A stretch of DNA of 46,140 bases from a virus (Duplodnaviria; Heunggongvirae; Uroviricota; Caudoviricetes): positions 1 through 46,140 of the IMG/VR virus record IMGVR_UViG_2693429508_000014; one strand, 5' to 3'. The position numbers and the translations under genes were made by a program. Numbering within the stretch: the stretch's first letter is position 1; each line of letters starts with the position of its first letter. Shown here in pieces: positions 1 through 37,765 of the stretch. The notes beneath the pieces were generated by a model, which was not told the origin of the DNA, ran no database searches, and was given only the letters and a program-made list of their open reading frames with translations.

Positions 1-1056
1 TTACAAATGCTGATTATTGAGTTTTATTGTCTGTAGTGCGTTTTTATCGCCACTATTTTTGGTGTAAATACGATCTAATGGATTGAGCGTTACCGCAGCC
101 TCAAGGTGGTCTGGGGCAAAGTGTGCATATCGCATCGTCATAAGAATCGTACTATGACCTAGTATCTGCTGTAGCACCAAGATATTCCCCCCATTCATCA
201 TAAAGTGGCTTGCAAAGGTATGCCTGAGAACGTGAGTTCGCTGACCTTCCGGCAACTCAATTTTTGCTTTCTTTAGCGCCCAAGTAAAAGCTTCATAGCA
301 ATTTGAAAAGAGACGGCCTCGACGTTTGGGTAACAGCTTCTGGATGTTATCCGAAATCGGGACGGTTCTGTTTTTCTTGCTCTTGGTATTCGTAAATGTG
401 ATCCGTCCCGGTAAAACCTGAGACTGTGTTAATTTTTCAGCCTCACTCCATCTGGCCCCAGTCGCCAGACATACACGAACAACAGAACCAAGATCGGCGT
501 TGCCTGATTCATCGCAAACCGAAAGAAGCCTCTCAATCTCATCTTCATACAGAAATGAGAGTTCGCTTTCACTAACTTTAAAATGGCGCACACCTTCTAA
601 AGGATTTTCACCAGCCCACGCGCCAAGACGCTTTAACTCAGAAAAAACAGCGTGCAAATATGACTGCTCACGATTTACGGTAGCTTCCTTAGTTGGCTTT
701 TTCTTATTAGCACTCCATTCACCTGATAACCGACGCTTCCGGTAAACAGCAAACATATTGCGGTCAAATTCTGAAACGAGCGGATCTCCCATCCTTTCGC
801 AAACAGCCTTCAACTTAGCCTGCCGTTCTTCACCCGTAGTCAATGTTTTACCGTGCATCTCGTACCAAATATCAACAAGCTCAGACAATCGTTTTGAACT
901 ATTAACCACTGAAACATCGGCATGCACCATCAATCGGCGCTCATGAGAAAGCGCCTCACCTTTTGTAGCAAACTGTCTACGAATACGCCTTCCGCTTGCC
1001 CCATATGGATAACATTCACAAAGCCACTTTCCTGATGCGAGTCGCCGAACTGTCAT
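1..1056 (-). CDS. int: Tyrosine integrase, P2 Int family
   Basis: 351-aa ORF. C-terminal catalytic region with HxLRHTFAS...MxYAHF motifs (R-H-R-Y recombinase signature) and N-terminal GKRIRRQF-type segment resembling P2 Int. The window begins exactly at its stop codon. Confidence 0.9.
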   Translation of the reverse strand: MTVRRLASGKWLCECYPYGASGRRIRRQFATKGEALSHERRLMVHADVSVVNSSKRLSELVDIWYEMHGKTLTTGEERQAKLKAVCERMGDPLVSEFDRNMFAVYRKRRLSGEWSANKKKPTKEATVNREQSYLHAVFSELKRLGAWAGENPLEGVRHFKVSESELSFLYEDEIERLLSVCDESGNADLGSVVRVCLATGARWSEAEKLTQSQVLPGRITFTNTKSKKNRTVPISDNIQKLLPKRRGRLFSNCYEAFTWALKKAKIELPEGQRTHVLRHTFASHFMMNGGNILVLQQILGHSTILMTMRYAHFAPDHLEAAVTLNPLDRIYTKNSGDKNALQTIKLNNQHL

Positions 1057-1066
1057 GTCACAACCC

Positions 1067-1324
1067 TCATGAACAATATTTGTCAGGGATTACGCCTAAA
1101 TTTAAAAAATCCAGAAACTCACTTTCAGTTAATATCATAGTTCCTTTTAATGCTGCTATTTCCATTTTTTTCGGACCCGCATTGCGGCCACAGCAAAGAA
1201 TATGAAGATTTGCAGTCACATCATTGCGAACTATCATACCGGCAGAAATTGCAGAATTTTTTAGCCTGTCCTTATCTGTTTTTTTAAAACCAGTAAAACA
1301 AACTTCGAACCACAGATAGGGCAA
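1067..1324 (-). CDS. Small protein with BRCT-like motif; TTG-initiated ORF overlapping an upstream Zn-ribbon ORF in another frame
   Basis: The translation VCFTGFKKTDKDRLKNSAISAGMIVRNDVTANLHILCCGRNAGPKKMEIAALKGTMILTESEFLDFL follows the BRCT pattern as recalled from the NAD-ligase C-terminus. AT-rich. The frame opens right after an in-frame TAA, with no ATG until codon 30. Confidence 0.35.
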   Translation of the reverse strand: MPYLWFEVCFTGFKKTDKDRLKNSAISAGMIVRNDVTANLHILCCGRNAGPKKMEIAALKGTMILTESEFLDFLNLGVIPDKYCS

Positions 1325-1401
1325 TTAGTATCTGTACTAGGTATATAACAATCACATTTTTGGCAATGCACTATTTTCAAAATTTCATTGTGATTTCCCA
1401 T
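1261..1401 (-). CDS. Small Zn-ribbon ORF (46 aa), overlapping the 5' part of the BRCT-like ORF in a different frame
   Basis: ATG 13 nt downstream of the preceding gene's stop. Translation MGNHNEILKIVHCQKCDCYIPSTDTNCPICGSK... has CxxC-(x10)-CPxC spacing. Confidence 0.3.
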   Translation of the reverse strand: MGNHNEILKIVHCQKCDCYIPSTDTNCPICGSKFVLLVLKKQIRTG

Positions 1402-1413
1402 AGCTATCTCACT

Positions 1414-2088
1414 TCATATTTTTGAAACGATTTCGCCCACAACAAAACCAACAACAAATACGATAATGAACACTAAATAATGCGTTGTCAGCATTTTAAT
1501 AAATGGTGTTCTATTAACAGAATTACTAGTTCTGATGTTGTCATTAAAGGAAACAGACATATCCTCTTTACATTCAGGTGAAACAATGGGAGCTGTTTTT
1601 TCTATCCACTCATAAATTTCAACGAGTTGATTGTGGCTTAATTCATCCAGCCGTGTGTTTTTGTAATAAATACTACAATGTTCATTCAGTTTATGGCGCA
1701 AATCCTGCGCCTCTGTTTTATTCAAGATCTTAGCGACAAGAACTTTTTTTGTTTTCTTCTCCTTACTTTCTGCCAGTAAATCGTTGAGGAATTTTAACGC
1801 AACCTTGTACTGACTACCTGATATCTCACTCACACCGTTCACGCCAAGTTCAGCGTGCAACTTTACCCAAACTGGCGCTGTTTCTGTGTTTTCAGACTCA
1901 GCTACAGCATTTACAAGTTTTCGAATGCTGATACGTTGGGACTTTACTAACGGGCGCTCTTCGCCCGCCTTAGCTGAAACATTGATATTGATTGTCTGGC
2001 TACTATCCAAACTCTCAATCTGGACGTTATTTTCTTTATAATCACGCCCTGCAATTTTATTTTTATCCCCGTTCAAGTTTAAATCCAT
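1414..2088 (-). CDS. Hypothetical C-terminally membrane-anchored protein (224 aa); AT-rich cargo gene
   Basis: ATG at 2088 preceded by GAGGAAGG Shine-Dalgarno, 21 nt after the repressor stop (co-transcribed). Hydrophobic C-terminus YLVFIIVFVVGFVVGEIV. Low GC versus the flanking phage genes. Confidence 0.6.
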   Translation of the reverse strand: MDLNLNGDKNKIAGRDYKENNVQIESLDSSQTININVSAKAGEERPLVKSQRISIRKLVNAVAESENTETAPVWVKLHAELGVNGVSEISGSQYKVALKFLNDLLAESKEKKTKKVLVAKILNKTEAQDLRHKLNEHCSIYYKNTRLDELSHNQLVEIYEWIEKTAPIVSPECKEDMSVSFNDNIRTSNSVNRTPFIKMLTTHYLVFIIVFVVGFVVGEIVSKI

Positions 2089-2109
2089 ACCCAGCCTTCC
2101 TCTCACTAC

Positions 2110-2493
2110 TTACTTTTTCTTTTCGTGATAATCCCCGCCCGCTACACGGTTACTGTTGCCTGATACGTTGACAGAAACAGAAGCAGAACTACCGGCTGTA
2201 AGAGCTGCCAATGCTGCAGCTTTAACGGCCAATGGAGCAGAACGATAAAGCGACAAAAGCTCACTTTCATCATTACTCAATGCCGACATAGAGCGCTCAC
2301 CAACCACAACATATTGAATATCAAGACCAAACTTGGACAAAAGAGCTAAGTAAACAGAATCAGGGGAACTATCGCCCTTTTCATATTTGATCTGAGTCCA
2401 CTTTTTAACCCCTCCCATATCCCCCATAGCAGCCTGACTCAACCCTAGCCTTTCTCTTTCTTCCTTCAAACGCGCGCCAATTGATATTTTCAC
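2110..2493 (-). CDS. Prophage immunity repressor, XRE-type HTH (C/CI-like)
   Basis: N-terminal HTH ISIGARLKEERERLGLSQAAMG. Probable GTG start at 2493 with AAGGGG Shine-Dalgarno (the ORF track's longer N-terminus uses an upstream alternative start). Divergent from the cox-like genes. No S24 peptidase-like C-terminal domain seen. Confidence 0.7.
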   Translation of the reverse strand: MKISIGARLKEERERLGLSQAAMGDMGGVKKWTQIKYEKGDSSPDSVYLALLSKFGLDIQYVVVGERSMSALSNDESELLSLYRSAPLAVKAAALAALTAGSSASVSVNVSGNSNRVAGGDYHEKKK

Positions 2494-2570
2494 ACCAAAC
2501 CCCTTGACAGGTGTGTTTTTCCACACCACAATATTATTAACGAACTGATAGAGGATCACAATATATCACT
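2494..2570. promoter_or_regulatory. Divergent lysis-lysogeny switch region between the repressor and the rightward early genes
   Basis: Intergenic region between divergently oriented repressor and early operon. TTGACA at 2504-2509 with a weak -10-like CACAAT 17 nt downstream. Operators not resolved. Confidence 0.3.
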
Positions 2571-2777
2571 ATGAATCAAGAACAACACACTCATAAGTCA
2601 CGATTGCCTAAAGGTGCCTTCAAAGGCAGGCCGATCGCCCTGCGTCTGACACCAGAAGTTCGTAAGACTGTAGAGGACCTGGCAAAGAAAGAGCTTCGCA
2701 CTGACTGCAATATGGCCCACGTCATTTTCATGCGCGGACTTGAGATCATCACTCAGGAGGGAGAAGAAAAAGAATGA
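2571..2777 (+). CDS. Small early regulator, possible ribbon-helix-helix (Cro/Apl-like position)
   Basis: 68 aa. GRPIALRLTPEVRKTVEDLAKKE resembles an RHH beta-strand plus helix. First gene of the rightward early operon. Confidence 0.45.
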   Translation: MNQEQHTHKSRLPKGAFKGRPIALRLTPEVRKTVEDLAKKELRTDCNMAHVIFMRGLEIITQEGEEKE

Positions 2778-2977
2778 GTAACATAACTATCAACATTAAC
2801 ATACCTACAGCCTACGTCCGCTTGGAGAAATACGCGGAAATGACAGGTACACCAATCGGCACATGTAGGGGAATGGTTCGCGATGGACGGATTATTATCC
2901 GTCCAAAAGAAAAAGCTAAAGACGCTATTGAGGTAAATCTCGTAGCCATGCTGAAAGATGCCATTGCGAATAGCTGA
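2774..2977 (+). CDS. Cox-like excisionase / transcriptional regulator
   Basis: 67 aa. AYVRLEKYAEMTGTPIGTCRGMVRDGRIII resembles the HTH region of P2 Cox as recalled. ATGA overlap with the upstream gene. Confidence 0.45.
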   Translation: MSNITININIPTAYVRLEKYAEMTGTPIGTCRGMVRDGRIIIRPKEKAKDAIEVNLVAMLKDAIANS

Positions 2978-3274
2978 ACTTGCAGCCATGAGCAAAACAC
3001 TAATATATATTTCAATCAAATACATGATTATACCTGTTCTAGCCATGCTGGCATCGCTGATTATTATAACTTTTAACAGGGCTTAATCATGTTCAACCCA
3101 AAAAACCTGCTTGCAGGCATAACAGGGGGATTGCGATCATCTGTTTAGGTATAGTTTGGTTACTACAACCATTAAATTTATCACCAGTTATATTTTTAAC
3201 ATGATATTAAAAATGAACACATTAATTAAAACCCAAAGGTTTCATTAAAAACATCAAGATTTGAAGGTGTTGAT

Positions 3275-3890: not shown

Positions 3891-4133
3891 ATGAGAAAAC
3901 ACACGGCAGAACAGGTAAACGAATTTCTACAGGGATATTACTTCGATAACGAAATTAATCCCCGCGCCAGAAAAACACACTTCGAAGTAATGAAGTGCGG
4001 AATATTCAGCGTCCGCAACACCCTGTTTTGTTCAAAAGATACGGGAGCCAGCGAGGACCTTAAAGAACTTAACCGGATGGCGAAACAATTAACGGATGGC
4101 ATGGTTCCCGAACCCGCAATAATTACGGAGTAA
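3891..4133 (+). CDS. Hypothetical early protein
   Basis: 80-aa ORF with GAGGA Shine-Dalgarno. Confidence 0.5.
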   Translation: MRKHTAEQVNEFLQGYYFDNEINPRARKTHFEVMKCGIFSVRNTLFCSKDTGASEDLKELNRMAKQLTDGMVPEPAIITE

Positions 4134-4138
4134 TCACG

Positions 4139-4351
4139 ATGAATTTCAGTTATTCATTCAGTGTACCGGAGTCGTTATTTGTTATCACACTGATTGCAGC
4201 CGCAATGTTTTTTGCCATCTGCATACTGACACTTATTGATACATGGCGGGAAATACGCGACAGACGTCGTCAGAAAAAAAAACGGGATGCATATAACGCA
4301 TTTATTCAGCACAAAGAAGAAGTAGAGCGTAAAGCACGCCGCCGTCTTTAG
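4139..4351 (+). CDS. Small single-pass membrane protein, basic C-terminus
   Basis: 70 aa. Hydrophobic segment LFVITLIAAAMFFAICILTLI followed by an R/K-rich tail. GGAG Shine-Dalgarno. Confidence 0.5.
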   Translation: MNFSYSFSVPESLFVITLIAAAMFFAICILTLIDTWREIRDRRRQKKKRDAYNAFIQHKEEVERKARRRL

Positions 4352-4422
4352 TTAATTAACCGGTTCCGTTAATACACCGCTCACGCGGCGGAATTCGCAC
4401 AATCTGAATAAGGGAAATAAAA

Positions 4423-5055
4423 ATGATTAATCCGACACTCACCCTCAAAGATAAAGCCCTTGCGGGCGCAATGTTTTTACGCAACTACGCCGCAATGATG
4501 GCTGACACTGACAACCCGATGATGGTGCTGTCAGTGGAGCCTCACCTTATCGCCGCAGACGCAATTGAACAGGTGGTACAGGAAAACACCTGTCTGAGAA
4601 ATCAGCTTGCCACCCTTCAGACAGCAGCTGACCCGGCAAAGGAAAGTGCTGAACACACCTGCCACACCACATTCATCAAAGGGACCCGCGTATGTCTGAA
4701 AAACAGTCCGCAGCAACGCGGAACGGTCGTTGACACCCGCACCAGTAGCCCCGCCATTGACCGGGTTTTCGTCCGTTTCGATTCCCCCTTCGAGGAAGAC
4801 CGCTGGGTAAAGACCAGAAACCTGGAAATAACCCCGACAAATGAAGCTGATTATCCCTGCGCGACACCGCAAAAACCGGATGAAGCCAGGGGGAAAGCCG
4901 GAGCGGGCAGCAAGGGCGGCATACCGTCGCCTGCTGAAGGGGGACCGGTCACACGTGCGACGACTGGAGCGGGTACCGCCCGCCCGCGTCATCAACGTCA
5001 TGTACCGTTACCGGCTGTTAAGTCTGGACGAAGGCCGGACATGGGTACTGCTTAA
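4423..5055 (+). CDS. Hypothetical early protein; 3' end uncertain (probably ends or changes frame near 4830-4880)
   Basis: 210-aa ORF whose last ~65 residues are low-complexity G/A/P/R-rich, typical of an out-of-frame read. A protein-like alternative frame overlaps (4880..5098). Confidence 0.4.
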   Translation: MINPTLTLKDKALAGAMFLRNYAAMMADTDNPMMVLSVEPHLIAADAIEQVVQENTCLRNQLATLQTAADPAKESAEHTCHTTFIKGTRVCLKNSPQQRGTVVDTRTSSPAIDRVFVRFDSPFEEDRWVKTRNLEITPTNEADYPCATPQKPDEARGKAGAGSKGGIPSPAEGGPVTRATTGAGTARPRHQRHVPLPAVKSGRRPDMGTA

Positions 5056-5098
5056 CCATAACGAATACGTGAAGAGGATAAGACGATGTTACAGATGA
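4880..5098 (+). CDS. Hypothetical small basic protein (start uncertain)
   Basis: Protein-like frame ...RLERVPPARVINVMYRYRLLSLDEGRTWVLLNHNEYVKR. Its stop overlaps the downstream ATG (translational coupling). Confidence 0.35.
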   Translation: MKPGGKPERAARAAYRRLLKGDRSHVRRLERVPPARVINVMYRYRLLSLDEGRTWVLLNHNEYVKRIRRCYR

Positions 5099-26943: not shown

Positions 26944-27508
26944 TAAATCACCGGACATTAAGTTGCCGTCATGGCTGAATCGCGGCGATGTGCTCCGCCT
27001 GAAAAACACCTTTATCCGTTTCTGGGGAAAGGTGCACAACTGGGTAACATGGCCACTGAGCCAGACCGACCCACTGACATGTGCGGAATCCATTCTGAAC
27101 CTGACAGCCTGGCAATATGATATAGCCCGTTTTGACGGCGAACCGCTCACGCTGTACAGAAAGCGTGTCAAATATGCCTTTATCAACGCACAGGACGCGG
27201 GCAGCGCGGCGGGATTCAGGGCAATTTTTGAACGACTGGGGATCGGTTATGTGGAGATTCAGGAGCGCCAGCCAGGCACAGACTGGGATGTTGTTCTTTT
27301 GCGCCTGACAGACAACCAGATCTCAGAAAATACAACATTACTCAATCAGATAATTCGCCAGTACGGTCGCACCTGCCGCCGTTACCATCTTCAGATAATC
27401 ACATCCACGGATTGTGTTATCGGACACGGATACTGGCATGGCAGCTATCACTATTTTTATGCACCGGAGATGAAAAATGACCCAGAGCGCTATCACTTCA
27501 GCATTTGA
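26936..27508 (+). CDS. Tail protein I-like
   Basis: 190 aa between the baseplate J-like gene and the tail fibre gene, with overlapping starts and stops. Confidence 0.45.
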   Translation: MPDKSPDIKLPSWLNRGDVLRLKNTFIRFWGKVHNWVTWPLSQTDPLTCAESILNLTAWQYDIARFDGEPLTLYRKRVKYAFINAQDAGSAAGFRAIFERLGIGYVEIQERQPGTDWDVVLLRLTDNQISENTTLLNQIIRQYGRTCRRYHLQIITSTDCVIGHGYWHGSYHYFYAPEMKNDPERYHFSI

Positions 27509-29431
27509 GCGCCTGAAAGCGCAGGAAGCCGCAGGCGGCAACCGTATCATCATTGATCAGTTTGTATTTGCAAATATCCCGGATCTGAACATTGCCGACA
27601 CGCCGTCTGAAAACGAACCATTGCCCCCCGATGCACAGATAGTTCACCGCCAGAACGTTGATCGCAACGGAATGGTAAATGAGAACACCGTCGCCTACTC
27701 CGTTACCCTGCCGGAGTCCACGGGTGATTTTACTTTTAACTGGCTGGGTCTGGTAAGCAGCACCACAAATACACTTTGTATGGTGGTATATCTTCACCCT
27801 CAGAAAAAAATAAAAACCGCAGACGGCAAACAGGGTAATACCCTGATTTATTCTGAAATTATGGAATACGCCGGAGCCAGCGCCGCAACCGGCATCACCA
27901 CGCCAGTAAGCACCTGGCAGATTGATTTTACGGCACGGCTTCACGGCATGGACGAGGCCACCCGCAAAGCGGCGCTGGATATCTACGGGCCTGGCCTGTT
28001 CTTTAATAACGCCTTTAAACTCACCGCTCAGGCTACCGGGCAGGCGACCTTCGCGCCGGGTATTGCCTATCTGCGCGGATTACGTGTGGAGCTGGATGAA
28101 CAAGGCACACTGACATACGCCACCGGAATTTCACAAACTGTTTATGTTGACGCGGCATTAACCGGTACCCTGACCGGGGAAAATAAAGCCATATTCAGCC
28201 TGACGAGTCAGAAAACAGCCGACTATACCGACAGTTCAGGATTTGCCCATTATGTCGAACCCATCGCCACAATATCAGACAGTGGCGAGATCACCGATAT
28301 ACGAAAAACCCGCAAACCATTAAATGACCGCCTTGATGGCGAATACCTGACCCGTAACGGGAACCTGAAAGAAATTGCTGACAAAGGTGAACAGGCCCAG
28401 TCTGATGCCAGAAAGCATATGGGCCTCGGCGACAGCGCCACCCTTAATGTTGGCACCGCGCAGGACACTGTAGCCGCAGGTGACGACATCCGCATCACAG
28501 GAGCGCTGCAAAAAAATCAGAACGGAGCAGATATTCCCGATAAACCGCTGTTTATCCAGAACGTTGGTTTACAGGAAACGGTAAACAAGGCTGATAACGC
28601 TGTCCAAAAGACAGGCGATACCTTGTCCGGTGGACTTACTTTTGAAAACGACTCAATCCTCGCCTGGATTCGGAATACTGACTGGGCGAAGATTGGATTT
28701 AAAAATGATGCCGACAGCGATACTGATTCATACATGTGGTTTGAAACAGGTGACAACGGCAATGAGTATTTCAAATGGAGACACCGCCTCGCTGGCGGCC
28801 GGGTTAAAGACCTGATGAATCTTAAATGGGATTCACTAAATATTCTGGTTAATGCCGTCATTAATGGTTGTCTTGGAATTGGTACGACGAATGCGTTAGG
28901 TGGAAGTTCAATCGTTTTAGGAGATAACGATACCGGGTTTAAACAAAATGGCGATGGTCTGCTTGATGTTTATGCGAATGGTCAGCGAGTATTCCGTTTT
29001 CAGAATGGTGTGACTATTGCTTTTAAGAATATTCAGGCCGGAACTGCCAGAAAATTCACGTTATCCAGCGCCAACAACTCCACGAAAAATGCAGCGTTTT
29101 ATTTGTGGGGTAATCCATCCAGGCCTGTTGTTGCAGAGCTTGGTGATGATTCAGGCTGGCATTTTTTCAGCCAGAGGAATACAGATAACAGCATCACGTT
29201 CGCCGTAAACGGACAGGTAATTCCGTTAAATTACGGAAACTTCGATGCCTGCTATAAATATCGAACAGAGGGGGTACAGGATGTACGGTATGGCCATGAA
29301 ATGTATTACACCCCCGGCAGTAACACCGTTTCGTGGACATTTCGCTCACCTTCGGGACACGGGCTGTCAGGGATATCGATATCGGATACCGGCCGTAACT
29401 CAGCGGATAACGTCAACGGTGTGTATTACCG
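27477..29431 (+). CDS. Tail fibre protein (P2 gpH-like), 3' end truncated by the scaffold gap
   Basis: Contains [47 protein letters not shown] and later segments matching P2 gpH as recalled. The true C-terminus is not in this contig; a diverged copy continues at 38969-39433. Confidence 0.75.
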
Positions 29432-29440
29432 NNNNNNNNN
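29432..29440. other. Assembly gap (9 N) joining a P2-type fibre gene to the middle of a lambda J-like gene
   Basis: Run of N. Coding content changes from the gpH-like to the J-like frame with no stop or start. Confidence 0.95.
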
Positions 29441-32400
29441 CGCCTGCTGGTTCAGATACAGCGTAACGGTGGCTGGGTGACGGAAAAAGACATCACCATT
29501 AAGGGCAAAACCACTTCGCAGTATCTGGCCTCGGTGGTGGTGGGTAACCTGCCGCCGCGCCCGTTTAATATCCGGATGCGCAGGATGACACCGGACAGCA
29601 CCACAGACCAGCTGCAGAACAAAACGCTCTGGTCGTCGTACACCGAAATCATCGATGTGAAACAGTGCTACCCGAACACGGCGCTGGTCGGCGTGCAGGT
29701 GGATTCAGAGCAGTTCGGTAACCAGCAGGTGAGTCGCAATTATCATCTTCGCGGGCGCATTCTGCAGGTGCCGTCGAACTATAACCCGCAGACGCGGCAA
29801 TACAGCGGTATCTGGGACGGAACGCTTAAGCCAGCATACAGCAACAACATGGCCTGGTGTCTGTGGGACATGCTCACTCATCCGCGCTACGGCATGGGGA
29901 AACGTCTTGGTGCGGCAGATGTGGACAAATGGGCGCTGTATGTCATCGGCCAGTACTGCGACCAGTCAGTGACGGACGGATTTGGCGGCACGGAGCCGCG
30001 CATCACCTGTAACTCTTACCTGACCACACAGCGTAAGGCGTGGGATGTTCTCAGTGATTTCTGCTCGGCGATGCGCTGTATGCCGGTATGGAACGGACAG
30101 ATGCTGACGTTCGTGCAGGACCGACCGTCGGATAAGGTGTGGACCTATAACCGCAGTAATGTGGTGATGCCGGACGATGGCGCGCCGTTCCGCTACAGCT
30201 TCAGCGCCCTGAAGGACCGCCATAATGCCGTTGAGGTGAACTGGATTGACCCGGATAACGGCTGGGAGACGGCGACAGAGCTTGTGGAGGATACGCAGGC
30301 CATTGTCCGTTACGGTCGTAACGTCACGAAGATGGATGCCTTTGGCTGTACCAGCCGGGGGCAGGCACACCGAGCCGGGCTGTGGCTGATTAAAACGGAA
30401 CTGCTGGAAACGCAGACCGTGGACTTCAGCGTGGGCGCAGAAGGGCTTCGCCATGTACCGGGTGATGTCATTGAAATCTGCGATGATGATTATGCCGGTA
30501 TCAGCACCGGTGGTCGCGTACTGGCGGTGAACAGCCAGACCCGGACGCTGACGCTCGACCGTGAAATCACGCTGCCGTCCTCCGGTACCACGCTGATAAG
30601 CCTGGTTGACGGAAGTGGCAATCCGGTCAGCGTGGAGGTCCAGTCCGTCACCGACGGCGTGAAGGTGAAAGTGAGCCGGGTTCCTGACGGCGTTGCAGAA
30701 TACAGCGTGTGGGGGCTGAAGCTGCCGACGCTGCACCAGCGATTGTTCCGCTGCGTGAGTATCCGTGAGAACGACGACGGCACGTATGCCATCACCGCCG
30801 TGCAGCATGTGCCGGAAAAAGAGGCCATCGTGGATAACGGGGCACACTTTGACGGTGACCGGCGCGGCACGGTGAATGGTGTCACGCCGCCAGCGGTGCA
30901 GCACCTGACTGCCGAAGTCACCGCAGACAGCGGGGAATATCAGGTGCTGGCGCGATGGGACACGCCGAAGGTGGTGAAGGGTGTGAGCTTCCTGCTTCGC
31001 CTGACCGTGGCAGCGGACGACGGCAGTGAGCGGCTGGTCAGCACAGCCAGGACGACGGAAACCACATACCGCTTCAGGCAGCTGGCGCTGGGGAATTACA
31101 GTCTGACAGTCCGGGCGGTAAATGCCCGGGGGCAGCAGGGCGATCCGGCGTCGGTATCGTTCCGGATTGCGGCACCGGCAGCGCCTGTCACTATTGAACT
31201 GATACCGGGGTATTTTCAGATAACGGCGGTCCCGAAACTGGCTGTATATGACCCGACGGTGCAGTTTGAGTTCTGGTTTTCGGAAAAGCGGATTGCGGAT
31301 ATCAGGCAGGTTGAAACCAGCGCCCGCTATCTTGGCACGGCGCTGTACTGGATAGCCGCCAGTATCAATATCAGGCCGGGCCATGATTATTATTTTTACG
31401 TTCGCAGTGTGAACACCGTTGGCAAATCGGCATTTGTGGAGGCCATCGGTCGGGCGAGCGATGATGCAGAAGGTTATCTGAATTTTTATAAAGGGTTGAT
31501 CAATAAAACGCATCTCGGCAAGGAGTTGTGGACGCAGATTGATAACGGTCAGCTTGCGCCGGACCTGACTGAAATCAGGACGTCCATTACGAATGTCAGC
31601 AATGAAATCACGCAAACCGTCAATAAAAAACTGGAAAATCAGAGTGCTGCAATCCAGCAGATACAGAAAGTTCAGGTTGATACAAATAATAACCTGAACA
31701 GCATGTGGGCTGTGAAGCTGCAACAGATGAAGGACGGACGCCTTTATATTGCGGGTATCGGTGCCGGTATTGAGAATACGCCAGCAGGAATGCAGAGTCA
31801 GGTGCTGCTGGCGGCAGACAGGATTGCGATGATTAATCCTGCGAATGGCAACACAAAGCCGATGTTTGTTGGTCAGGGCGATCAGATATTCATGAACGAC
31901 GTGTTCCTGAAATGCCTGACGGCTCCGACCATTACCAGCGGCGGTAATCCTCCGGCATTTTCCCTGACACCTGGCGGACGGCTGACGGCGAAAAATGCCG
32001 ATATCAGCGGTAACGTGAACGCGAACTCCGGGACGCTCAACAACGTCACGATTAATAAGAACTGTCGGGTTCTGGGAAAATTGTCCGCGAACCAGATTGA
32101 AGGCGATCTCGTTAAAACAGTGGGCAAACCTTTCCCACGGGACTCCCGGGCACCGGAGAGGTGGCCATCAGGGACCATTACCGTCAGGGTTTATGACGAT
32201 CAGCCGTTTGATCGGCAAATTGTTATTCCCGCGGTGGCGTTTCGCGGTGCTAAACATGAGCGGAAGAATAACAATATTTATTCGTCATGCCGCCTGATAG
32301 TGAAGAAAAACGGTGCTGAAATTTATAACCGAACGACCCTGGATAATACGCTGATATATACGGGTGTTATTGATATGCCTGCCGGTCACGGTCACATGAC

Positions 32401-32515
32401 GCTGGAGTTTTCTGTATCGGCATGGCTGGTAAATGGCTGGTATCCCACAGCAAGTATCAGCGATTTGCTGGTTGTGGTGATGAAGAAAGCCACTGCAGGC
32501 ATCACGATTAGCTGA
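29441..32515 (+). CDS. J: Lambda J-like host specificity (central tail fibre) protein, 5' partial
   Basis: Open from the first base after the gap. Long stretches ([19 protein letters not shown]..., [30 protein letters not shown]...) match lambda gpJ as recalled; the C-terminal ~150 aa differ from lambda. Confidence 0.9.
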
Positions 32516-32582
32516 ATTTTATAACCCAGATACGGGCACCAGAAATGGTGCCTTTTTTATTGCAGAAAAGCGAGAGGTAATT

Positions 32583-32765
32583 ATGCGTAAAGTTTGTGCA
32601 GCCATTTTGTCCGCAGCCATCTGTCTGGCCGTATCCGGTGCGCCTGCATGGGCGTCTGAACATCAGTCCACGCTGAGCGCCGGGTATCTTCAGACCCATA
32701 CTGATATGCCAGGCAGCGATGACCTGAAGGGCATTAACGTGAAATACCGTTATGAGTTTACGGAC
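32583..32765 (+). pseudogene. lom: lom-like outer membrane protein gene, 5' fragment cut at the N at 32766
   Basis: The first 61 codons (MRKVCAAILSAAICLAVSGAPAWASEHQ...) are nearly identical to the intact lom at 33701; the frame is interrupted at the N and joined to J-like sequence. Confidence 0.6.
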
Positions 32766-32766
32766 N

Positions 32767-33633
32767 GCAATCCAGCAGATACAGAAGGTTCAGGTTGATA
32801 CAAATAATAACCTGAACAGCATGTGGGCTGTGAAGCTGCAACAGATGAAGGACGGACGCCTTTATATTGCGGGTATCGGTGCCGGTATTGAGAATACGCC
32901 AGCAGGAATGCAGAGTCAGGTGCTGCTGGCGGCAGACAGGATTGCGATGATTAATCCTGCGAATGGCAACACAAAGCCGATGTTTGTTGGTCAGGGCGAT
33001 CAGATATTCATGAACGACGTGTTCCTGAAACGCCTGACGGCTCCCACCATTACCAGCGGCGGTAATCCTCCGGCATTTTCCCTGACACCGGACGGAAAAC
33101 TGACCGCTAAAAATGCAGATATCAGTGGCAGTGTGAATGCGAACGCCGGGACGCTCAACAATGTCACAATTAATGAGAACTGTCAGATTAAGGGGAAACT
33201 GTCAGCCAACCAGATTGAAGGCGATATAGTCAAAACAGTGGGTAAGGCTTTTCCGCGGGACTCCCGGGCACCGGAGCGGTGGCCATCAGGGACCATTACC
33301 GTCAGGATTTATGACGATCAGCCTTTTGACAGGCAAATTGTTATTCCGGCGGTGGCATTCAGCGGCGCTAAACATGAGCGGGAGAATAACGATATTTATT
33401 CGTCATGCCGCCTGATAGTACGGAAAAACGGTGCTGAAATTTATAACCGTACCGCGCTGGATAATACGCTGATTTACAGTGGTGTTATTGATATGCCAGC
33501 TGGTCGCGGCCACATGACGCTGGAGTTTTCGGTGTCAGCATGGCTGGTGAATAACTGGTATCCCACAGCAAGTATCAGCGATTTGCTGGTTGTGGTGATG
33601 AAGAAAGCCACCGCAGGCATCAGTATCAGCTGA
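32767..33633 (+). CDS. Second, diverged copy of the J-like 3' end (5' partial, starts at the N join)
   Basis: Roughly 90-95% nucleotide identity by eye to 31649-32515; encodes an alternative J C-terminal receptor-binding region ending ...[10 protein letters not shown]. Confidence 0.7.
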
Positions 33634-33700
33634 ATTTTATAACCCATATACGGGCGCCAGAAATGGCGCCTTTTTTATTGCAGAAAAGCGAGAGGTAATT

Positions 33701-34300
33701 ATGCGTAAAGTTTGTGCAGCCATTTTGTCCGCAGCCATCTGTCTGTCCGTATCCGGTGCGCCTGCATGGGCGTCTGAACATCAGTCCACACTGAGCGCGG
33801 GGTATCTTCATGCCCGTACGAACGCTCCCGGCAGCGATAATCTGAACGGGATTAACGTGAAATACCGTTATGAGTTTACGGACGCGCTGGGGCTGATTAC
33901 GTCCTTCAGTTATGCCAATGCTGAGGATGAGCAAAAAACGCACTACAGCGATACCCGCTGGCATGAAGATTCCGTGCGTAACCGCTGGTTCAGCGTGATG
34001 GCGGGGCCGTCTGTACGCGTGAATGAATGGTTCAGCGCGTATGCGATGGTGGGTGTGGCTTACAGCCGTGTGTCGACTTTCTCCGGGGATTATCTCCGCG
34101 TAACTGACAACAAGGGGAAAACGCACGATGTGCTGACCGGAAGTGATGACGGTCGCCACAGCAACACGTCTCTGGCGTGGGGGGCTGGCGTGCAGTTTAA
34201 CCCGACCGAATCCGTGACCATTGACCTTGCTTATGAAGGTTCCGGTAGTGGTGACTGGCGAACGGATGCATTTATTGTTGGTATCGGATACCGTATCTGA
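33701..34300 (+). CDS. lom: Lom / Ail / PagC-family outer membrane beta-barrel protein
   Basis: 199 aa with signal peptide MRKVCAAILSAAICLSVSGAPAWA, alternating beta-strand pattern and a C-terminal aromatic residue (GYRI); in the lambda position downstream of J. Confidence 0.85.
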   Translation: MRKVCAAILSAAICLSVSGAPAWASEHQSTLSAGYLHARTNAPGSDNLNGINVKYRYEFTDALGLITSFSYANAEDEQKTHYSDTRWHEDSVRNRWFSVMAGPSVRVNEWFSAYAMVGVAYSRVSTFSGDYLRVTDNKGKTHDVLTGSDDGRHSNTSLAWGAGVQFNPTESVTIDLAYEGSGSGDWRTDAFIVGIGYRI

Positions 34301-34451
34301 CAACAGACGCCGATTTATCTTCTGTAAATATTGTTATGATACGCAGGTTCATCCACCTTATGGGGTGAACTGCGTTTGAGGAAACGTAAAGTTACACTGT
34401 CCTGAAGCCCGTGGCGTCACTGCTGCGGGCTTTTTTTATTGGTGGAAAAGT

Positions 34452-37208
34452 ATGACAGTAAAAATTTCTGGCGTGCTTAAAGATGGCACAGGAAAACCAG
34501 TACAGAACTGCACCATTGTGCTGAAGGCCAGACGAACCAGCAGCACGATGGTGGTGAACACGGTGGCCTCTGAAAATCCGGATGAAGCCGGACGTTACAG
34601 CATGGATGTTGAGCATGGTCAGTACAGCGTCACCCTGCTGGTTGAAGGTTTTCCGCCTTCACATGCCGGGACCATTACCGTCTATGAAGGTTCCAGACCA
34701 GGTACGCTGAATGATTTTCTCGGTGCCATGACGGAGGATGATGTCCGACCGGAGGCACTGCGCCGCTTTGAGCAGATGGTGGAAGAGGTGTCACGTAACG
34801 CCTCCGCGGTTGCACAGAATACGGCAGCCGCGAAAAAATCAGCCAGCGAGGCGGCAACTCATGCAACCGATGCTGCAGCCTCAGCACGTGCCGCCAGCAC
34901 GTCAGCCGGACAGGCCGCGTCGTCGGCTCAGTCAGCGTCTTCCAGCGCAGGAACGGCATCGACAAAGGCCCGTGAAGCAGCAAAAAGTGCTGCTGCAGAG
35001 TCATCAAAAAGCGCGGCAGCTACCAGCGCCAGTGCCGCGAAAACGTCAGAAACGAATGCCGCAGCATCACAAAAATCGGCAGCCACTTCTGCATCCACAG
35101 CGACCACGAAGGCGTCAGAAGCTGCCACCTCGGCACGGGGTGCGGCGGCCTCAAAAGAGGCAGCGAAATCTTCAGAAACGAATGCATCATCAAGTGCCAG
35201 TAGTGCAGCTTCCTCGGCAACGGCGGCAGGAAATTCCGCGAAGGCGGCAAAAACGTCCGAGACGAACGCTAAGTCTTCTGAAACAGCAGCGGGACAGAGC
35301 GCCTCAGCTGCGGCAGGTTCAAAAACAGCGGCTGCATTATCTGCCAGTGCCGCGTCAACAAGTGCCGGGCAGGCCTCAGCCAGTGCCACCGCCGCCGGAA
35401 AATCGGCAGAAAGCGCCGCATCATCCGCTTCAACAGCCACAACGAAGGCTGGCAAAGCCACTGAGCAAGCCACTGCAGCAGCGAGGTCTGCTTCTGCAGC
35501 AAAAACCTCTGAAACAAATGCAAAGACTTCAGCAGACAATGCTGCTTCCTCTAAGGCAGCAGCCGCATCGTCAGCCAGTTCAGCGGCGTCATCGGCATCA
35601 TCTGCGTCTGCTTCAAAAGATGAGGCGACCAGACAAGCGTCAGCAGCGAAAGGTAGTGCCACGACAGCAACAACGAAAGCATCAGAGGCGGCAGGCAGTG
35701 CGACGGCTGCATCTCAGAGCAAAGTTGCTGCTGAATCCGCGGCAACGCGCGCCGAGACAGCAGCAAAACGGGCAGAGGATATTGCATCCGCCGTGGCGCT
35801 GGAGGATGCGAGCACGACGAAAAAGGGGATAGTACAGCTCAGCAGTGCGACCAACAGCACTTCCGAGTCACTGGCGGCAACGCCAAAAGCGGTTAAGGCG
35901 GTAATGGGTGAAACGAACAAGAAAGCGCCCTTAAATAGTCCTGCACTGACCGGAACGCCAACAACACCAACTGCGCGACAGGGAACGAATAATACCCAAA
36001 TCGCAAGCACGGCTTTCGTTATGGCTGCGATTGCCGCCCTTGTAGATTCGTCACCTGATGCACTGAACACGCTGAACGAGCTGGCTGCGGCGCTGGGCAA
36101 CGACCCGAATTTTGCGACCACCATGACTAACGCGCTTGCGGGTAAGCAACCGAAAGATGCCACCCTGACGGCGCTGGCCGGACTTACTACTGCGGCAGGC
36201 AAGTTTCCGTATTTTACGGGGAATGATGTCGCCAGCCTGGCAACCCTGACAAAAGTCGGGCGGGATATTCTTGCGAAATCGACCGTTGCTGCCGTTATCG
36301 AATACCTCGGTTTACAGGAAACGGTAAACAAGGCTGGTAACGCCGTTCAGCGTTCCGGCGATAAAATGACCGGAGAACTGAAAATTGGCACGGTGAATGC
36401 GCTGCGAATTTTCAATGATACCTTCGGTCTAATTTTCCGTCGTTCAGAAGATTTTCTTCATTTCATTCCGACGGCTGAAGGACAAGGCGAAAACGGTAAT
36501 ATCGGCCCATTAAGGCCATTCGCTATAAATCTGAGAACAGGTGCTATATCTGTCAGCCACGGGGCCAAAATTAAAGGAGGTCTAGCTATTGGAGCTACTG
36601 ATAACGCACTGGGTGAAAACTCCATTGTTCTGGGAGATAACGACACCGGATTTAGGCAAGATGGAGATGGTATTATTAGCTTCTATTCAAATGGTTCGCG
36701 CATCGGACATATTGATGAGTTAGGATTACATCTTTATAAAGATATTGAATCTAATGGCAGCAATTTTAGATTAAAAAGTAATTACCGCCACCACATTACA
36801 TTCGCCAACGAAGACGGAAGAATTCGTATGTTTTTGTGGAAAGATAACGGTGGTGATGGTGTTCATATTAATAACGGTTCAGATGGTGGTGGTGATTTCA
36901 TTTTTAAAACAGATGGGGGATTTGCGCTGGGAAGTGGTGCGCAAGTTGCGTCTAGTGGCGATATTTATGGTTCAGTGTGGGAAAACAACTGGTTAAGCAC
37001 ATGGCTGCATAATCATGTCGTTCGGGATATTCGTCTTGGCAGCATTGAATATAAAAACGTATGGCGCGACTACGGCTTTGGCGATGCGTCAGGTTATGTT
37101 TTAACAGCCGCAATTAACAGCAATGCGGATGATATTGTCGACACTGTTGCCAGAAGGCCAATTCAGAAATTGATTGGGGGAATATGGTACAACGTGGGGA
37201 GTGTTTAA
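34452..37208 (+). CDS. stf: Side tail fibre protein (lambda Stf-like N-terminus, mosaic C-terminus)
   Basis: N-terminus [28 protein letters not shown]... matches lambda Stf as recalled. Long Ala/Ser/Thr-rich repeats. Conserved fibre block [29 protein letters not shown]...[15 protein letters not shown]. Ends [16 protein letters not shown]. Confidence 0.85.
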
Positions 37209-37209
37209 G

Positions 37210-37737: not shown

Positions 37738-37742
37738 AAATT

Positions 37743-37762
37743 AAGGCCCGATAGCGGGCCTT
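37743..37762. terminator. Hairpin between the convergent tfa genes (likely terminator, strongest for the minus-strand transcript)
   Basis: Perfect 8-bp stem AAGGCCCG / CGGGCCTT with loop ATAG; the T-rich tract lies on the minus-strand side. Confidence 0.35.
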
Positions 37763-37765
37763 CTC

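What the first reader, a model, noticed from the sequence alone, without database searches (positions are those of the whole stretch)
1067..2088. AT-rich cargo cassette between integrase and immunity repressor, co-transcribed with the repressor
P2-type phages normally have int directly next to the repressor. Here about 1 kb of clearly AT-richer DNA sits between them. It encodes a 224-aa protein with a single C-terminal membrane anchor, whose ATG lies 21 nt after the repressor stop with a strong Shine-Dalgarno, followed by small Zn-ribbon and BRCT-like ORFs. Genes expressed from the lysogen's repressor transcript are classically superinfection-exclusion, abortive-infection or lysogenic-conversion functions. 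I recognise no known family for the 224-aa protein, so this is a candidate undescribed prophage-encoded defence or exclusion module.
Basis: partly seen in the sequence, partly recalled or inferred. Interest (0 to 1): 0.68.

Follow-up and report, generated by a model that had tools for sequence, protein, structure and literature searches.

The report
Repressor and membrane partner share motif
The AT-rich DNA between the integrase and the repressor of this P2-like prophage holds a conserved membrane-anchored partner of the repressor, whose front end copies the repressor's tail, followed by the broken remains of a cargo gene; the pairing hints at an undescribed layer of lysogeny control.

Summary
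Window 1067-2088 is the most AT-rich kilobase of the 46 kb (GC 0.366 against a mean of 0.516). It lies in a minus-strand operon: repressor, 224-aa gene, Zn-ribbon/BRCT ORFs, int.

The 224-aa protein is not orphan cargo. It belongs to PHROG 5825 and Pfam Flk_N (PF27202). It is a tail-anchored inner-membrane protein with a confident helical cytoplasmic core of ORF6C / Red-beta C-terminal-domain type.

A homologue follows the immunity repressor in every P2-like and Mu-like prophage or phage examined in which the family is present, in Enterobacterales, Pseudomonas, Burkholderia and Ralstonia. Its disordered N-terminal "head" repeats the ~20-aa motif that ends the repressor. In the window these are NLNGDKNKIAGRDYKEN and NVSGNSNRVAGGDYHEK. 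Where the motif changes class, both proteins change together.

I infer a repressor-binding or tethering modulator of immunity. This mechanism is untested.

The Zn-ribbon and BRCT ORFs are two out-of-frame fragments of one 459-aa gene (Zn-ribbon, 2 TM, WYL, WYL, BRCT), broken by a 1045-bp deletion. That position, not the 224-aa gene, is the variable cargo slot. No known defence family matches the 224-aa protein.

The parts
2110..2493 (-). Immunity repressor, 127 aa, GTG start. XRE helix-turn-helix at residues 1-64, two further helices at 74-103, disordered tail at 104-127.
   Evidence: Pfam HTH_3 E=2.7e-6. tblastn matches the helix-turn-helix region of immunity repressors in 243 phage records. 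AF2: helices confident, residues 106-127 below pLDDT 50.
2113..2175 (-). Repressor C-terminal 'tail' motif, residues 107-127: SVSVNVSGNSNRVAGGDYHEKKK-COOH (class A: G-x-x-N-R-x-A-G-R/G-D-Y/F-x-E, then x-K-K and the end of the protein).
   Evidence: 105 of 120 repressor homologues carry the motif, and 95 of those have exactly 3 residues after it. The tail weakly hits the first 21 positions of phrog_5825, the family of the downstream gene.
2089..2109 (-). 21-nt intergenic spacer with a Shine-Dalgarno-like GAGAGGAAGG (2104-2095), 6 nt before the ATG.
   Evidence: Sequence. In the other loci the two genes are always collinear, from a 4-nt overlap to 73 nt apart.
1414..2088 (-). 224-aa tail-anchored membrane protein, Flk_N / PHROG 5825 family.
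   Evidence: phrog_5825 E=4.8e-68, full length. Precomputed Pfam PF27202 Flk_N. NCBIfam Flk 49.8 bits, far below the 353-bit cut-off. 51 cluster representatives (clusters at 50% identity) match at E<=1e-3.
2023..2088 (-). N-terminal 'head', residues 1-22: MDLNLNGDKNKIAGRDYKENNV. Same motif as the repressor tail, in a disordered segment (residues 1-44).
   Evidence: Tail and head are identical at 8 of 17 aligned residues, and 4 of those 8 use different codons. Local alignment score 53, against 18.3 +/- 4.4 (maximum 38) for shuffled heads. pLDDT 42-50. These are the only two occurrences of the motif in the six-frame translation of the window.
1591..1956 (-). Helical cytoplasmic core, residues 45-166: two ORF6C / Red-beta C-terminal-domain-like helical units, which together make up the Flk_N region.
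1420..1503 (-). C-terminal transmembrane tail anchor, residues 196-223, with one residue after it.
   Evidence: AF2 helices 196-202 and 204-223. Hydrophobic sequence. Conserved in all family members.
1261..1401 (-). 5' stub (46 codons) of a deleted cargo gene. The Zn-ribbon CQKC...CPIC is followed by 20 out-of-frame codons.
   Evidence: The same N-terminus heads the intact 459-aa (L010, L009) and 234-aa (L003) Salmonella genes. Weak Zn-ribbon Pfam hits.
1307..1309 (-). Deletion junction. The TTC microhomology is shared by both flanks. 1045 bp (3n+1) of the intact gene are missing.
   Evidence: blastn: window 2066..1307 matches L010 566..1328, and window 1309..41 matches L010 2371..3642. Base-level junction.
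1067..1309 (-). 3' remnant of the same gene: a BRCT domain, out of frame with the stub. NCBI's PGAP pipeline annotates it from a TTG at 1324.
   Evidence: Pfam BRCT E=7.4e-5. phrog_2561 positions 92-167 of 167 only. 91% identical to the C-terminus of the 459-aa protein.
1..1056 (-). Tyrosine integrase, last gene of the operon.
   Evidence: Pfam Int_N E=1.2e-33 and Phage_integrase E=7.3e-24.
2504..2561 (.). Face-to-face promoter-like sites: TTGTGA-17-AATAAT on the minus strand (toward the repressor) and TTGACA-17-CACAAT on the plus strand (toward the Arc-like and Cox-like genes).
   Evidence: Consensus scan only. The count is not enriched over shuffled sequence, so the positions are suggestive and no more.
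2571..2977 (+). Divergent early genes: an Arc-like repressor (2571-2777) and a Cox-like excisionase/repressor (2774-2977).
   Evidence: phrog_3431 E=2.9e-24 and phrog_575 E=1.3e-25. The order cox, arc | repressor, Flk-like gene, cargo, int is conserved in the Enterobacterales loci long enough to show it.

Best explanation
Window 1414-2088 encodes the dedicated operon partner of the prophage's immunity repressor. It is not a cargo gene. It is a tail-anchored inner-membrane protein whose cytoplasmic part has two elements:
- a disordered N-terminal 'head' that copies the ~20-aa motif ending the repressor, and
- two ORF6C / Red-beta C-terminal-domain-type helical modules (Pfam Flk_N), a fold used by phage proteins to hold partner proteins or their terminal peptides.

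Shown here:
- the family assignment, architecture and operon position;
- conservation of the pair across P2-like and Mu-like phages of gamma- and beta-proteobacteria;
- that head and tail always belong to the same motif class.

Inferred: head and tail interact. This could be direct, by strand pairing, or both could compete for the helical module. Either way a fraction of the repressor would be held at the membrane. The protein would then act as a built-in antirepressor-like sink or tether that sets the level of free repressor and could couple the lysis-lysogeny switch to the state of the envelope.

Window 1067-1401 is a dead remnant of the real cargo gene (Zn-ribbon, 2 TM, WYL, WYL, BRCT), inactivated by a 1045-bp frame-breaking deletion.

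My confidence in the descriptive part is about 0.9. The 0.4 given below is for the mechanism.
For: 1. Family and fold.
- phrog_5825 E=4.8e-68.
- Pfam Flk_N.
- AF2 core pLDDT above 90, head and linker disordered, C-terminal TM helix.

2. Conserved pairing.
- In the 24 genome loci from the pattern scan plus the Salmonella loci, the gene just upstream is an XRE repressor ending ...GxGNRVAGRDYxExKK. L029 was left unresolved, and in two or three loci the partner is truncated or decayed.
- Starting instead from two repressor homologues (P0176, P0169) again finds a Flk_N gene downstream.
- The same pairing occurs in the isolated phages BcepMu (gp17/gp18), AP3 (gp39/gp38) and RsoM1USA. AP3 gp38 homologues occur in 70 phage records, and profile comparison confirms homology (hhalign probability 96.2% and 93.6%).

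3. Class-level co-variation.
- Class A tails against class A heads score 54.4 on average. Class B against class B scores 35-50. Cross-class pairs score 17.7-18.7, the same as shuffled background (18.3 +/- 4.4). All 23 scored pairs are class-matched.

4. Selection acts on the protein.
- About half of the identical residues use different codons.

5. Both motifs sit in disordered termini.

6. The invariant features are the head plus a membrane anchor.
- L033 and L031 encode head-plus-TM proteins that lack Flk_N.

7. The partner is dispensable for carriage of the prophage.
- It is pseudogenised in phage 520873, L026 and L042. This fits a modulator better than a core repressor component.

8. The remnant.
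-.
Against: - There is no direct evidence of binding.
- Within class A, a tail is no more similar to its own head than to heads from other loci. Co-variation is therefore seen only between classes and could in part reflect shared ancestry.
- A shared motif could equally mean that both proteins bind a third factor.
- It is not obvious why a phage would co-express a sink with its repressor.
- The repressor of Pseudomonas phage Komp_PAO1_1 has a class B tail but no head-bearing neighbour.
- Expression in the lysogen is inferred from layout only.
Confidence: 0.4

Rival explanations
1. Superinfection-exclusion or abortive-infection effector expressed from the repressor transcript. The membrane protein blocks or kills on phage attack. 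The repressor tail could cap it and keep it silent until the repressor is titrated or inactivated.
For: - Position in the lysogenic operon.
- Membrane anchor.
- By established knowledge, lambda rexAB and P22 sieB sit in comparable positions.
- The adjacent slot carries defence-like cargo: WYL and BRCT proteins with weak to moderate hits to the PADLOC candidate PDC-S48 (E=1.4e-8 and 2.1e-6).
Against: - No PADLOC hit for this protein or its homologues.
- Defence morons are usually patchy, whereas this gene is fixed next to one repressor family across phage types and host classes.
- It has a single tail anchor with essentially no periplasmic part, which is a poor design for blocking DNA entry.
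- The conserved soluble helical core suggests partner binding rather than pore formation.
Confidence: 0.2
2. The shared motif is a common recognition tag for a third, host or phage, factor such as a protease, an adaptor or a chaperone. Repressor and membrane protein would then be processed, degraded or localised together, or the head would act as a decoy that protects the repressor tail.
For: - Both copies lie in disordered termini, as degrons and short linear motifs do.
- Tails end in a conserved basic x-K-K.
- Within class A there is no cognate specificity, which fits a shared external reader.
Against: - Several motif classes switch in both partners together, across hosts from Pectobacterium to Burkholderia. 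A conserved host reader would be expected to hold the motif constant.
- No candidate third gene travels with the pair.
Confidence: 0.15
3. A lysogenic-conversion Flk mimic. Like host Flk (Fluke), it acts on the flagellar type III export gate and changes FlgM secretion or motility of the lysogen.
For: - Pfam Flk_N domain, NCBIfam Flk hit E=2.9e-13, and the same tail-anchored architecture.
Against: - It scores 49.8 bits against a 353-bit equivalog cut-off.
- It is a third shorter than Flk. The Flk-type proteins seen here (P0056, P0066) lack the head motif.
- The idea does not explain the link with the repressor tail.
- The family occurs in Mu-like and P2-like phages of Pseudomonas, Burkholderia and Ralstonia. 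I did not check whether those hosts have Flk.
Confidence: 0.08

Closest known systems
Flk / Fluke (RflH), the flagellar export regulator of Salmonella and E. coli
   Same: Flk_N helical domain (PF27202), a cytoplasmic body and a single C-terminal tail anchor (PMC13344023).
   Different: It is 224 aa against 333 aa. It scores far below the equivalog threshold. It is encoded in a prophage immunity operon. It carries the repressor-like head motif, which the Flk-type proteins P0056 and P0066 lack. Nothing links it to flagella.
Phage antirepressors (P22 Ant-type proteins with ORF6C-like C-terminal regions; Qtip of vibriophage VP882, which sequesters its repressor)
   Same: The proposed logic is a phage protein that binds and withdraws the immunity repressor. 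There are weak PHROG matches to the C-terminal parts of antirepressors, and an ORF6C-type fold. Qtip sequestration is described in bioRxiv 10.1101/2019.12.16.877910 (abstract seen).
   Different: Known antirepressors are soluble, are expressed only on induction and sit elsewhere in the genome. This protein is membrane-anchored, lies in the repressor's own operon, and mimics the repressor's tail.
Genes carried on repressor transcripts for exclusion (lambda rexA/rexB, P22 sieB)
   Same: It lies directly downstream of the repressor with no terminator-like signal between them, and it is membrane-associated.
   Different: There is no sequence or fold relation. It is conserved with one repressor family across phage types, and it shares a motif with the repressor.
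Amyloid signalling motif pairs (fungal HET-S/NWD2; bacterial BASS1-10)
   Same: A ~20-25-aa motif rich in G, N, Q, V and I sits at the C-terminus of one protein and at the N-terminus of the protein encoded by the adjacent collinear gene, and one partner is membrane-directed (bioRxiv 10.1101/2020.01.06.895854).
   Different: There is no NLR (NB-ARC or NACHT) and no Bell or HeLo effector. The hosts are Proteobacteria, where BASS motifs are reported as rare. One partner is a DNA-binding repressor. The motif is richer in charged residues. Amyloid formation is untested.
Red-beta C-terminal domain bound to the SSB C-terminal peptide (PDB 8tfu, 6m9k)
   Different: This is structural resemblance only. 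The protein has no recombinase domain and binding of the tail peptide is hypothetical.
WYL-BRCT phage proteins (phrog_2561) and the PADLOC candidate PDC-S48
   Same: The BRCT remnant at 1067-1309 is the C-terminal third of such a protein. Intact relatives occupy the same slot.
   Different: In the window the gene is broken and out of frame. The hits to PDC-S48 are partial. The N-terminal Zn-ribbon and two TM segments are not part of phrog_2561.

Membership tests
PHROG 5825 / Pfam PF27202 (Flk_N) phage family | Full-length profile match | tested here: met
   phrog_5825 E=4.8e-68, residues 1-221 on profile positions 1-207 of 208. PF27202 is precomputed for this exact protein and all 27 close homologues.
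Flk (NCBIfam NF007987 equivalog) | Score at or above the curated equivalog cut-off (353 bits) | tested here: not met
   49.8 bits, E=2.9e-13, covering only residues 35-160.
Flk (NCBIfam NF007987 equivalog) | Cytoplasmic body with a single C-terminal membrane anchor | tested here: met
   AF2 helix 196-223 with one residue beyond it. Architecture of Flk as described in PMC13344023.
Flk (NCBIfam NF007987 equivalog) | Holds the flagellar type III export apparatus in early-secretion mode | not testable with these tools
   Needs genetics: FlgM secretion in ring mutants.
Known anti-phage defence systems (PADLOC-DB 2.0) | Match to any defence-protein model | tested here: not met
   No hit at E<=1 for the 224-aa protein or for P0010 and P0026.
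Phage antirepressor (Ant/KilAC-type) | N-terminal Ant / BRO / KilA-type domain plus a C-terminal region | tested here: not met
   Only the central helical region matches, and weakly, the C-terminal parts of phrog_245 (E=7.8e-5) and phrog_2127 (E=1.1e-3). No Ant or BRO domain in Pfam.
Amyloid signalling motif gene pairs (BASS / HET-s type) | Short motif shared by the C-terminus of one protein and the N-terminus of the adjacent collinear gene's product | tested here: met
   Window score 53 against shuffled 18.3 +/- 4.4. All 23 scored pairs are class-matched.
Amyloid signalling motif gene pairs (BASS / HET-s type) | Partners are an NLR (NB-ARC/NACHT) and a Bell/HeLo-type effector | tested here: not met
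   The partners are an XRE repressor and a Flk_N tail-anchored protein.
Amyloid signalling motif gene pairs (BASS / HET-s type) | The motif forms cross-beta fibrils and templates its partner | not testable with these tools
   Monomer AF2 leaves both motifs disordered. Fibril and seeding assays are needed.
P2-type immunity region | Repressor and int on one strand, facing a divergent Cox-type gene across back-to-back promoters | tested here: met
   Cox-like phrog_575 E=1.3e-25. Promoter-like pair at 2504-2561. P2-like replication, head and sheath genes. The relative, phage 520873, is classified in Peduoviridae.
WYL-BRCT protein (phrog_2561) | Intact WYL plus BRCT in one reading frame | tested here: not met
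   Only profile positions 92-167 are present. The WYL part and 1045 bp are deleted and the frame is broken.

The most novel reading that the evidence does not exclude
The head and tail are a prion-like or beta-solenoid signalling pair, analogous to HET-S/NWD2 and the bacterial BASS motifs. The membrane protein, whose head region shows two pseudo-repeats (AGRD... then ...GRD/TINI), would template or co-assemble with the single-repeat tail of the repressor. A membrane-located conformational switch would then sequester or aggregate the repressor and flip the lysis-lysogeny decision, or conversely trigger a membrane effector. This would be the first amyloid-type signalling motif found in phage immunity, and in Proteobacteria.
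Probability: 0.12. Interest if true: 0.9.

Novelty: new variant of a known kind. Interest (0 to 1): 0.62.

Why it matters
Immunity regions of P2-like and Mu-like phages are treated as a repressor plus Cox/Ner-type switch. Here a second conserved component appears. It is a membrane-anchored protein that mimics the repressor's own tail. It is present from E. coli and Salmonella to Pseudomonas, Burkholderia and Ralstonia, including isolated and sequenced phages (BcepMu gp18, AP3 gp38, phiE202 gp22), where it is annotated only as 'membrane protein', 'hypothetical protein' or, wrongly, 'alpha/beta hydrolase'.

If the two proteins interact, several things follow:
- It would be a new way of setting or sensing repressor activity, by membrane tethering or motif mimicry.
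- It would explain a very common unannotated gene.
- It would give a testable handle on how these phages, whose best-known relative P2 is not SOS-inducible, regulate induction.
- It suggests that host Flk derives from a phage protein-binding module.

Practically, the analysis also corrects the annotation. The PGAP 'BRCT domain-containing protein' is a gene fragment. The true variable cargo slot lies between the Flk-like gene and int.

Tried and rejected
- Stop-codon readthrough fusion. In the window the repressor stop and the ATG are in frame, 7 codons apart. The frame is not kept in L012 or L013, so I rejected this.
- AF2 of the natural read-through fusion, to probe head-tail pairing. 
- AF2 with locus-derived repressor sequences (A3). 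Redone with database homologues (A4).
- AlphaFold database (afdb50) fold search. The library is not installed.
- The search for related loci with the broad alignment A1. No sufficiently conserved stretch. The narrower A2 worked.
- Locus-specific (cognate) co-variation within class A. Not found: the cognate head ranks 1-17 of 23. Only class-level co-variation holds.
- Recent duplication or gene conversion as the cause of head-tail similarity. Rejected, because about half of the identical residues use different codons.
- Pfam LETM1_RBD hit (E=0.0058, below cut-off). Dismissed as a chance helical match.
- Sequence search of PDB with the family profile. Nothing credible.
- Megablast against phages. 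No match. Only 1 of 5426 complete E. coli genomes carries this exact region.
- Literature searches (PF27202; Flk plus prophage; Xuanwuvirus; P2-like immunity plus membrane protein; BcepMu gp17/gp18; membrane-anchored antirepressor). No description of this pair.
- Programmed -1 frameshift joining the Zn-ribbon to BRCT. Rejected in favour of a deletion, because the intact 459-aa orthologue shows 1045 bp missing exactly at the frame change.
Full report
**1. What is in the window**

The minus strand of window 1-2600 carries one tightly packed gene string:

| Feature | Coordinates | Notes |
|---|---|---|
| Repressor | 2110..2493 | GTG start, 127 aa, Pfam HTH_3 E=2.7e-6 |
| Spacer | 2089..2109 | 21 nt, contains GAGAGGAAGG |
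| 224-aa ORF | 1414..2088 | ATG at 2088 |
| Zn-ribbon ORF | 1261..1401 | 46 aa |
| BRCT ORF | 1067..1324 | 85 aa, overlaps the Zn-ribbon ORF in another frame |
| int | 1..1056 | starts 10 nt after the BRCT ORF |

- Divergent Arc-like and Cox-like genes follow on the plus strand (phrog_3431 and phrog_575).
- Promoter-like hexamers face each other at 2504-2561. No terminator-like site lies on the minus strand down to int.
- The rest of the window has P2-type replication, head and sheath genes.
- The nearest phage record, Escherichia phage 520873, is classified in Peduoviridae, genus Xuanwuvirus.
- The region is 99.9% identical to E. coli FDAARGOS_943 and occurs in only 1 of 5426 complete E. coli genomes.
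- GC of 1067-2088 is 0.366, lower than every one of 903 sliding 1022-bp windows across the 46 kb (mean 0.516, sd 0.048).

**2. The Zn-ribbon and BRCT ORFs are one broken gene**

- Salmonella relatives carry, at the same place, an intact 459-aa gene (L010:1234-2613, L009:2814-4193). Its order is Zn-ribbon, two TM segments, a WYL-like domain, WYL, BRCT.
- Its last 175 residues match phrog_2561 end to end (E=2.1e-46). The window's BRCT ORF matches only profile positions 92-167.
- blastn places window 2066..1307 on L010 566..1328 and window 1309..41 on L010 2371..3642.
- At base level, the window joins ...TGTGGTTC to GAAGTTTG... across a TTC microhomology and lacks 1045 bp, which is 3n+1.
- This is exactly why the Zn-ribbon reading frame runs into a stop 20 codons later while BRCT continues in another frame. 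The PGAP 'BRCT domain-containing protein' (TTG start) is thus a gene fragment.

**3. Where the variable cargo slot really is**

Across the Enterobacterales loci long enough to show it, the order is cox(-), arc(-) | repressor, Flk-like gene, [variable 300-1000 bp], int. The variable segment holds:
- the 459-aa gene;
- a 234-aa Zn-ribbon/2TM/WYL gene;
- a 292-aa protein that starts with BRCT;
- 291-295-aa proteins that end in BRCT (PADLOC candidate PDC-S48, E=1.4e-8);
- secreted or lipoproteins, two-TM proteins and small acidic proteins.

This segment is usually more AT-rich than the module upstream of it. It is the moron/defence hotspot. In the window its occupant is dead.

**4. The 224-aa protein has a family and a confident fold**

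Family:
- It matches phrog_5825 over its full length (E=4.8e-68).
- It carries the recent Pfam family PF27202, Flk_N.
- NCBIfam's Flk equivalog is hit at E=2.9e-13 but with 49.8 bits against a cut-off of 353.
- PADLOC has nothing.
- An exhaustive HMMER search of 1.84 billion cluster representatives finds 51 proteins at E<=1e-3. Most are about 200 aa, and a few are host Flk-type proteins of 400-490 aa.

Fold, from AF2 with a 23-sequence alignment:
- residues 1-44 disordered (pLDDT 42-50);
- a helical core at 45-166 with pLDDT above 90;
- a disordered linker at 167-195;
- a C-terminal TM helix at 196-223, with one residue after it.

The protein is therefore a tail-anchored protein facing the cytoplasm.

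Structural neighbours:
- The top match in BFVD, the viral predicted-structure library, is an 'ORF6C domain-containing protein'.
- PHROG gives weak matches to the C-terminal parts of antirepressors.

**5. The key finding: the repressor's tail and the membrane protein's head are the same motif**

In the window:
- The repressor ends ...SVNVSGNSNRVAGGDYHEKKK.
- The 224-aa protein begins MDLNLNGDKNKIAGRDYKENN.
- They share 8 of 17 aligned residues, and 4 of those 8 use different codons.
- The local alignment score is 53, against 18.3 +/- 4.4 (maximum 38) for shuffled heads.
- These are the only two occurrences of the motif in the six-frame translation of the window.

This is not peculiar to the window:
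- A scan of one genome per species with the motif found 24 loci in Enterobacter, Rosenbergiella, Mixta, Izhakiella, Erwinia, Serratia, Kosakonia, Pectobacterium, Yersinia, Buttiauxella, Hafnia, Symbiopectobacterium and Pseudomonas.
- In these loci the gene immediately upstream is an XRE repressor ending ...(I/V)NVSGxGNRVAGRD(Y/F)xExKK, and the membrane protein starts M-x(4-6)-G-x-x-NRxAGRD(F/Y)xE. The exceptions are L029, left unresolved, and two or three loci with a truncated or decayed partner.
- Identity between tail and head reaches 14 of 19 residues, with 6 of the 14 encoded differently (L013).
- Among 120 database homologues of the repressor, 105 carry the motif, 95 of them with exactly three residues after it.
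- Starting from two of those repressors again finds a Flk_N gene immediately downstream.

**6. The motif changes class in both partners together**

| Phage or prophage | Repressor tail | Membrane-protein head |
|---|---|---|
| L036 (Mu-like) | FKDVGQYIEGSVNQAGLTLNVGG | FHGGVGQVAEGDINNFGGINIHL |
| L037 | QVFHGKVGQSIAGNVDQRGAKVGVFG | QVFREDVGQAVAGDLVNSGVVINIG |
| L038 (Mu-like) | QIFHGSVGQVIKGD... | QSFHGDTGVVAGGD... |
| L039 (Pectobacterium, Mu-like) | QIFNGDISGQFAGNQIINN | QEFNGTAQGQFSSRDIINI |
| BcepMu gp17 / gp18 | QVFHGSVGQAVKVEG | QEFNKPVGQAIQAGE |
| AP3 gp39 / gp38 | QNFQGASVGQHVTGDV | QKFSGDVGQVAGGDV |
| RsoM1USA | IKVQGKVGQYIDGN | IVVKGDAGQVVAGD |

Sources.

- Class A tails against class A heads average 54.4. 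Class B pairs score 35-50. Cross-class pairs score 17.7-18.7, which is background. All 23 scored pairs are class-matched.
- AP3 gp38 and BcepMu gp18 are homologous to the family in the head and the first helical unit (hhalign probability 96.2% and 93.6%).
- AP3 gp38 relatives occur in 70 phage records, including phiE202 gp22.
- AF2 of the repressor shows five HTH helices, two further helices (74-103) and a disordered tail (106-127 below pLDDT 50). Both copies of the motif are therefore terminal, disordered short linear elements.
- Two loci encode head-plus-TM proteins without the Flk_N core: L033, with a Zn-ribbon instead, and a second protein in L031. The invariant is therefore 'head motif tethered to the membrane'.
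- The partner gene is decayed in some prophages (phage 520873, L026, L042). The repressor of Pseudomonas phage Komp_PAO1_1 has a class B tail without a head-bearing neighbour. The partner is therefore not required for repression as such.

**7. Mechanism**

Shown: the pair is a conserved, co-varying two-gene module of the immunity operon in P2-like and Mu-like phages of gamma- and beta-proteobacteria.

Inferred: the two termini act on each other. They might pair directly as strands. Alternatively both could be ligands of the ORF6C / Red-beta C-terminal-domain-like module, whose solved relative grips a partner's terminal peptide. In either case, part of the repressor pool would be held at the inner membrane.

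I commit to an antirepressor-like sink or tether that tunes free repressor and could link the switch to the state of the envelope (probability about 0.4).

Rivals:
- a superinfection-exclusion or abortive-infection effector gated by the repressor tail (0.2);
- a shared tag read by a third factor such as a protease (0.15);
- a Flk mimic acting on flagellar export (0.08). Flk keeps the export gate in early mode (PMC13344023).

The most novel reading that is not excluded is templated beta-assembly of the HET-s/BASS type. Its genomic signature is a motif at the C-terminus of one protein and the N-terminus of the adjacent collinear gene's product (bioRxiv 10.1101/2020.01.06.895854). That signature is reproduced here, although the partner domains are quite different.

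**8. Comparison with what is known, and novelty**

- The protein is a member of PHROG 5825 / Pfam Flk_N.
- It is not Flk, because the equivalog threshold is failed by a wide margin.
- It is not in any PADLOC defence family.
- It is not an Ant-type antirepressor, because it has no N-terminal Ant, BRO or KilA domain.
- Six targeted full-text searches found no description of the repressor-tail / membrane-head relation.
- Database annotations call the protein 'membrane protein', 'hypothetical protein', 'alpha/beta hydrolase' or 'flagella biosynthesis regulator'.

I rate it a new variant of a known kind, namely repressor-partner modules. It would be categorically new if the templating reading proves right.

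**9. Verdict**

An AT-rich insert in the repressor operon exists, and a cargo hotspot exists.
- However, the 224-aa gene is a conserved repressor partner rather than cargo, its family is recognisable, the small ORFs are debris of one gene, and a defence role is unsupported.
- Interest is 0.62. It rests on the robust comparative signal of tail/head mimicry, and not on the original defence hypothesis.

Noticed in passing
window 29477-38299: Directly after the P2-like tail-fibre gene (27477-29480) come lambdoid tail genes. These are an N-terminally truncated lambda-J-type central fibre ORF (29477-32515, phrog_31 positions 410-1315 of 1565), the J C-terminal receptor-binding domain (32752-33633), Lom (33701-34300), an Stf-like side fibre (34452-37208) and Tfa (37766-38299, minus strand). 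The P2-like prophage therefore abuts, or has recombined with, a lambdoid prophage remnant and may be defective.
   Followed up: partly
L009:749-1982 (Salmonella enterica): Three tandem paralogues of the repressor precede the Flk-like gene. Two have an intact tail motif. The third has a degenerate tail (...NISDTGNNENK).
   Followed up: partly
L011:5635-6513; L017:5663-6538; L021:5652-6539; L010:1234-2613: BRCT domains recur in the cargo slot next to int in three unrelated architectures: Zn-ribbon/2TM/WYL/WYL/BRCT, a 292-aa protein that starts with BRCT, and 291-295-aa proteins that end in BRCT. Two of these hit the PADLOC candidate PDC-S48 (E=1.4e-8 and 2.1e-6). They may be an uncharacterised family of DNA-sensing defence or moron genes.
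   Followed up: partly
window 2978-3274: An AT-rich (GC 0.32-0.34), ORF-poor gap lies after the Cox-like gene. It has a strong minus-strand promoter-like site (3054-3027, 10 of 12 matches) and a minus-strand terminator-like hairpin (3118-3105). The E. coli record has no annotated gene here.
   Followed up: no
window 4841-5098: An 85-aa ORF carries a ParE-like toxin domain (PF24732, E=1.1e-9) in the early region. It overlaps the end of a 210-aa ORF (4423-5055) that has no family. Some Salmonella relatives lack the ParE-like gene.
   Followed up: no
P0056, P0066 (host Flk-type proteins) compared with the phage family: The Flk_N unit has the ORF6C / Red-beta C-terminal-domain-type fold that is typical of phage proteins, and the phage family is the more diverse. 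Host Flk may therefore be a domesticated phage module. Flk-type proteins lack the head motif.
   Followed up: no
L008:3001-3613 and 4027-5027 (Escherichia phage 520873, NC_049344): In this RefSeq 'complete phage' the Flk-like gene is split into 55-aa and 115-aa ORFs and is not annotated. The integrase is also split in two. The record looks like a decaying prophage.
   Followed up: partly
L045:2305-3060 (AP3 gp38) and its relatives in Burkholderia phages: Several GenBank records annotate this head-motif membrane protein as 'alpha/beta hydrolase'. Nothing in the sequence or in the profile comparison supports that name.
   Followed up: partly
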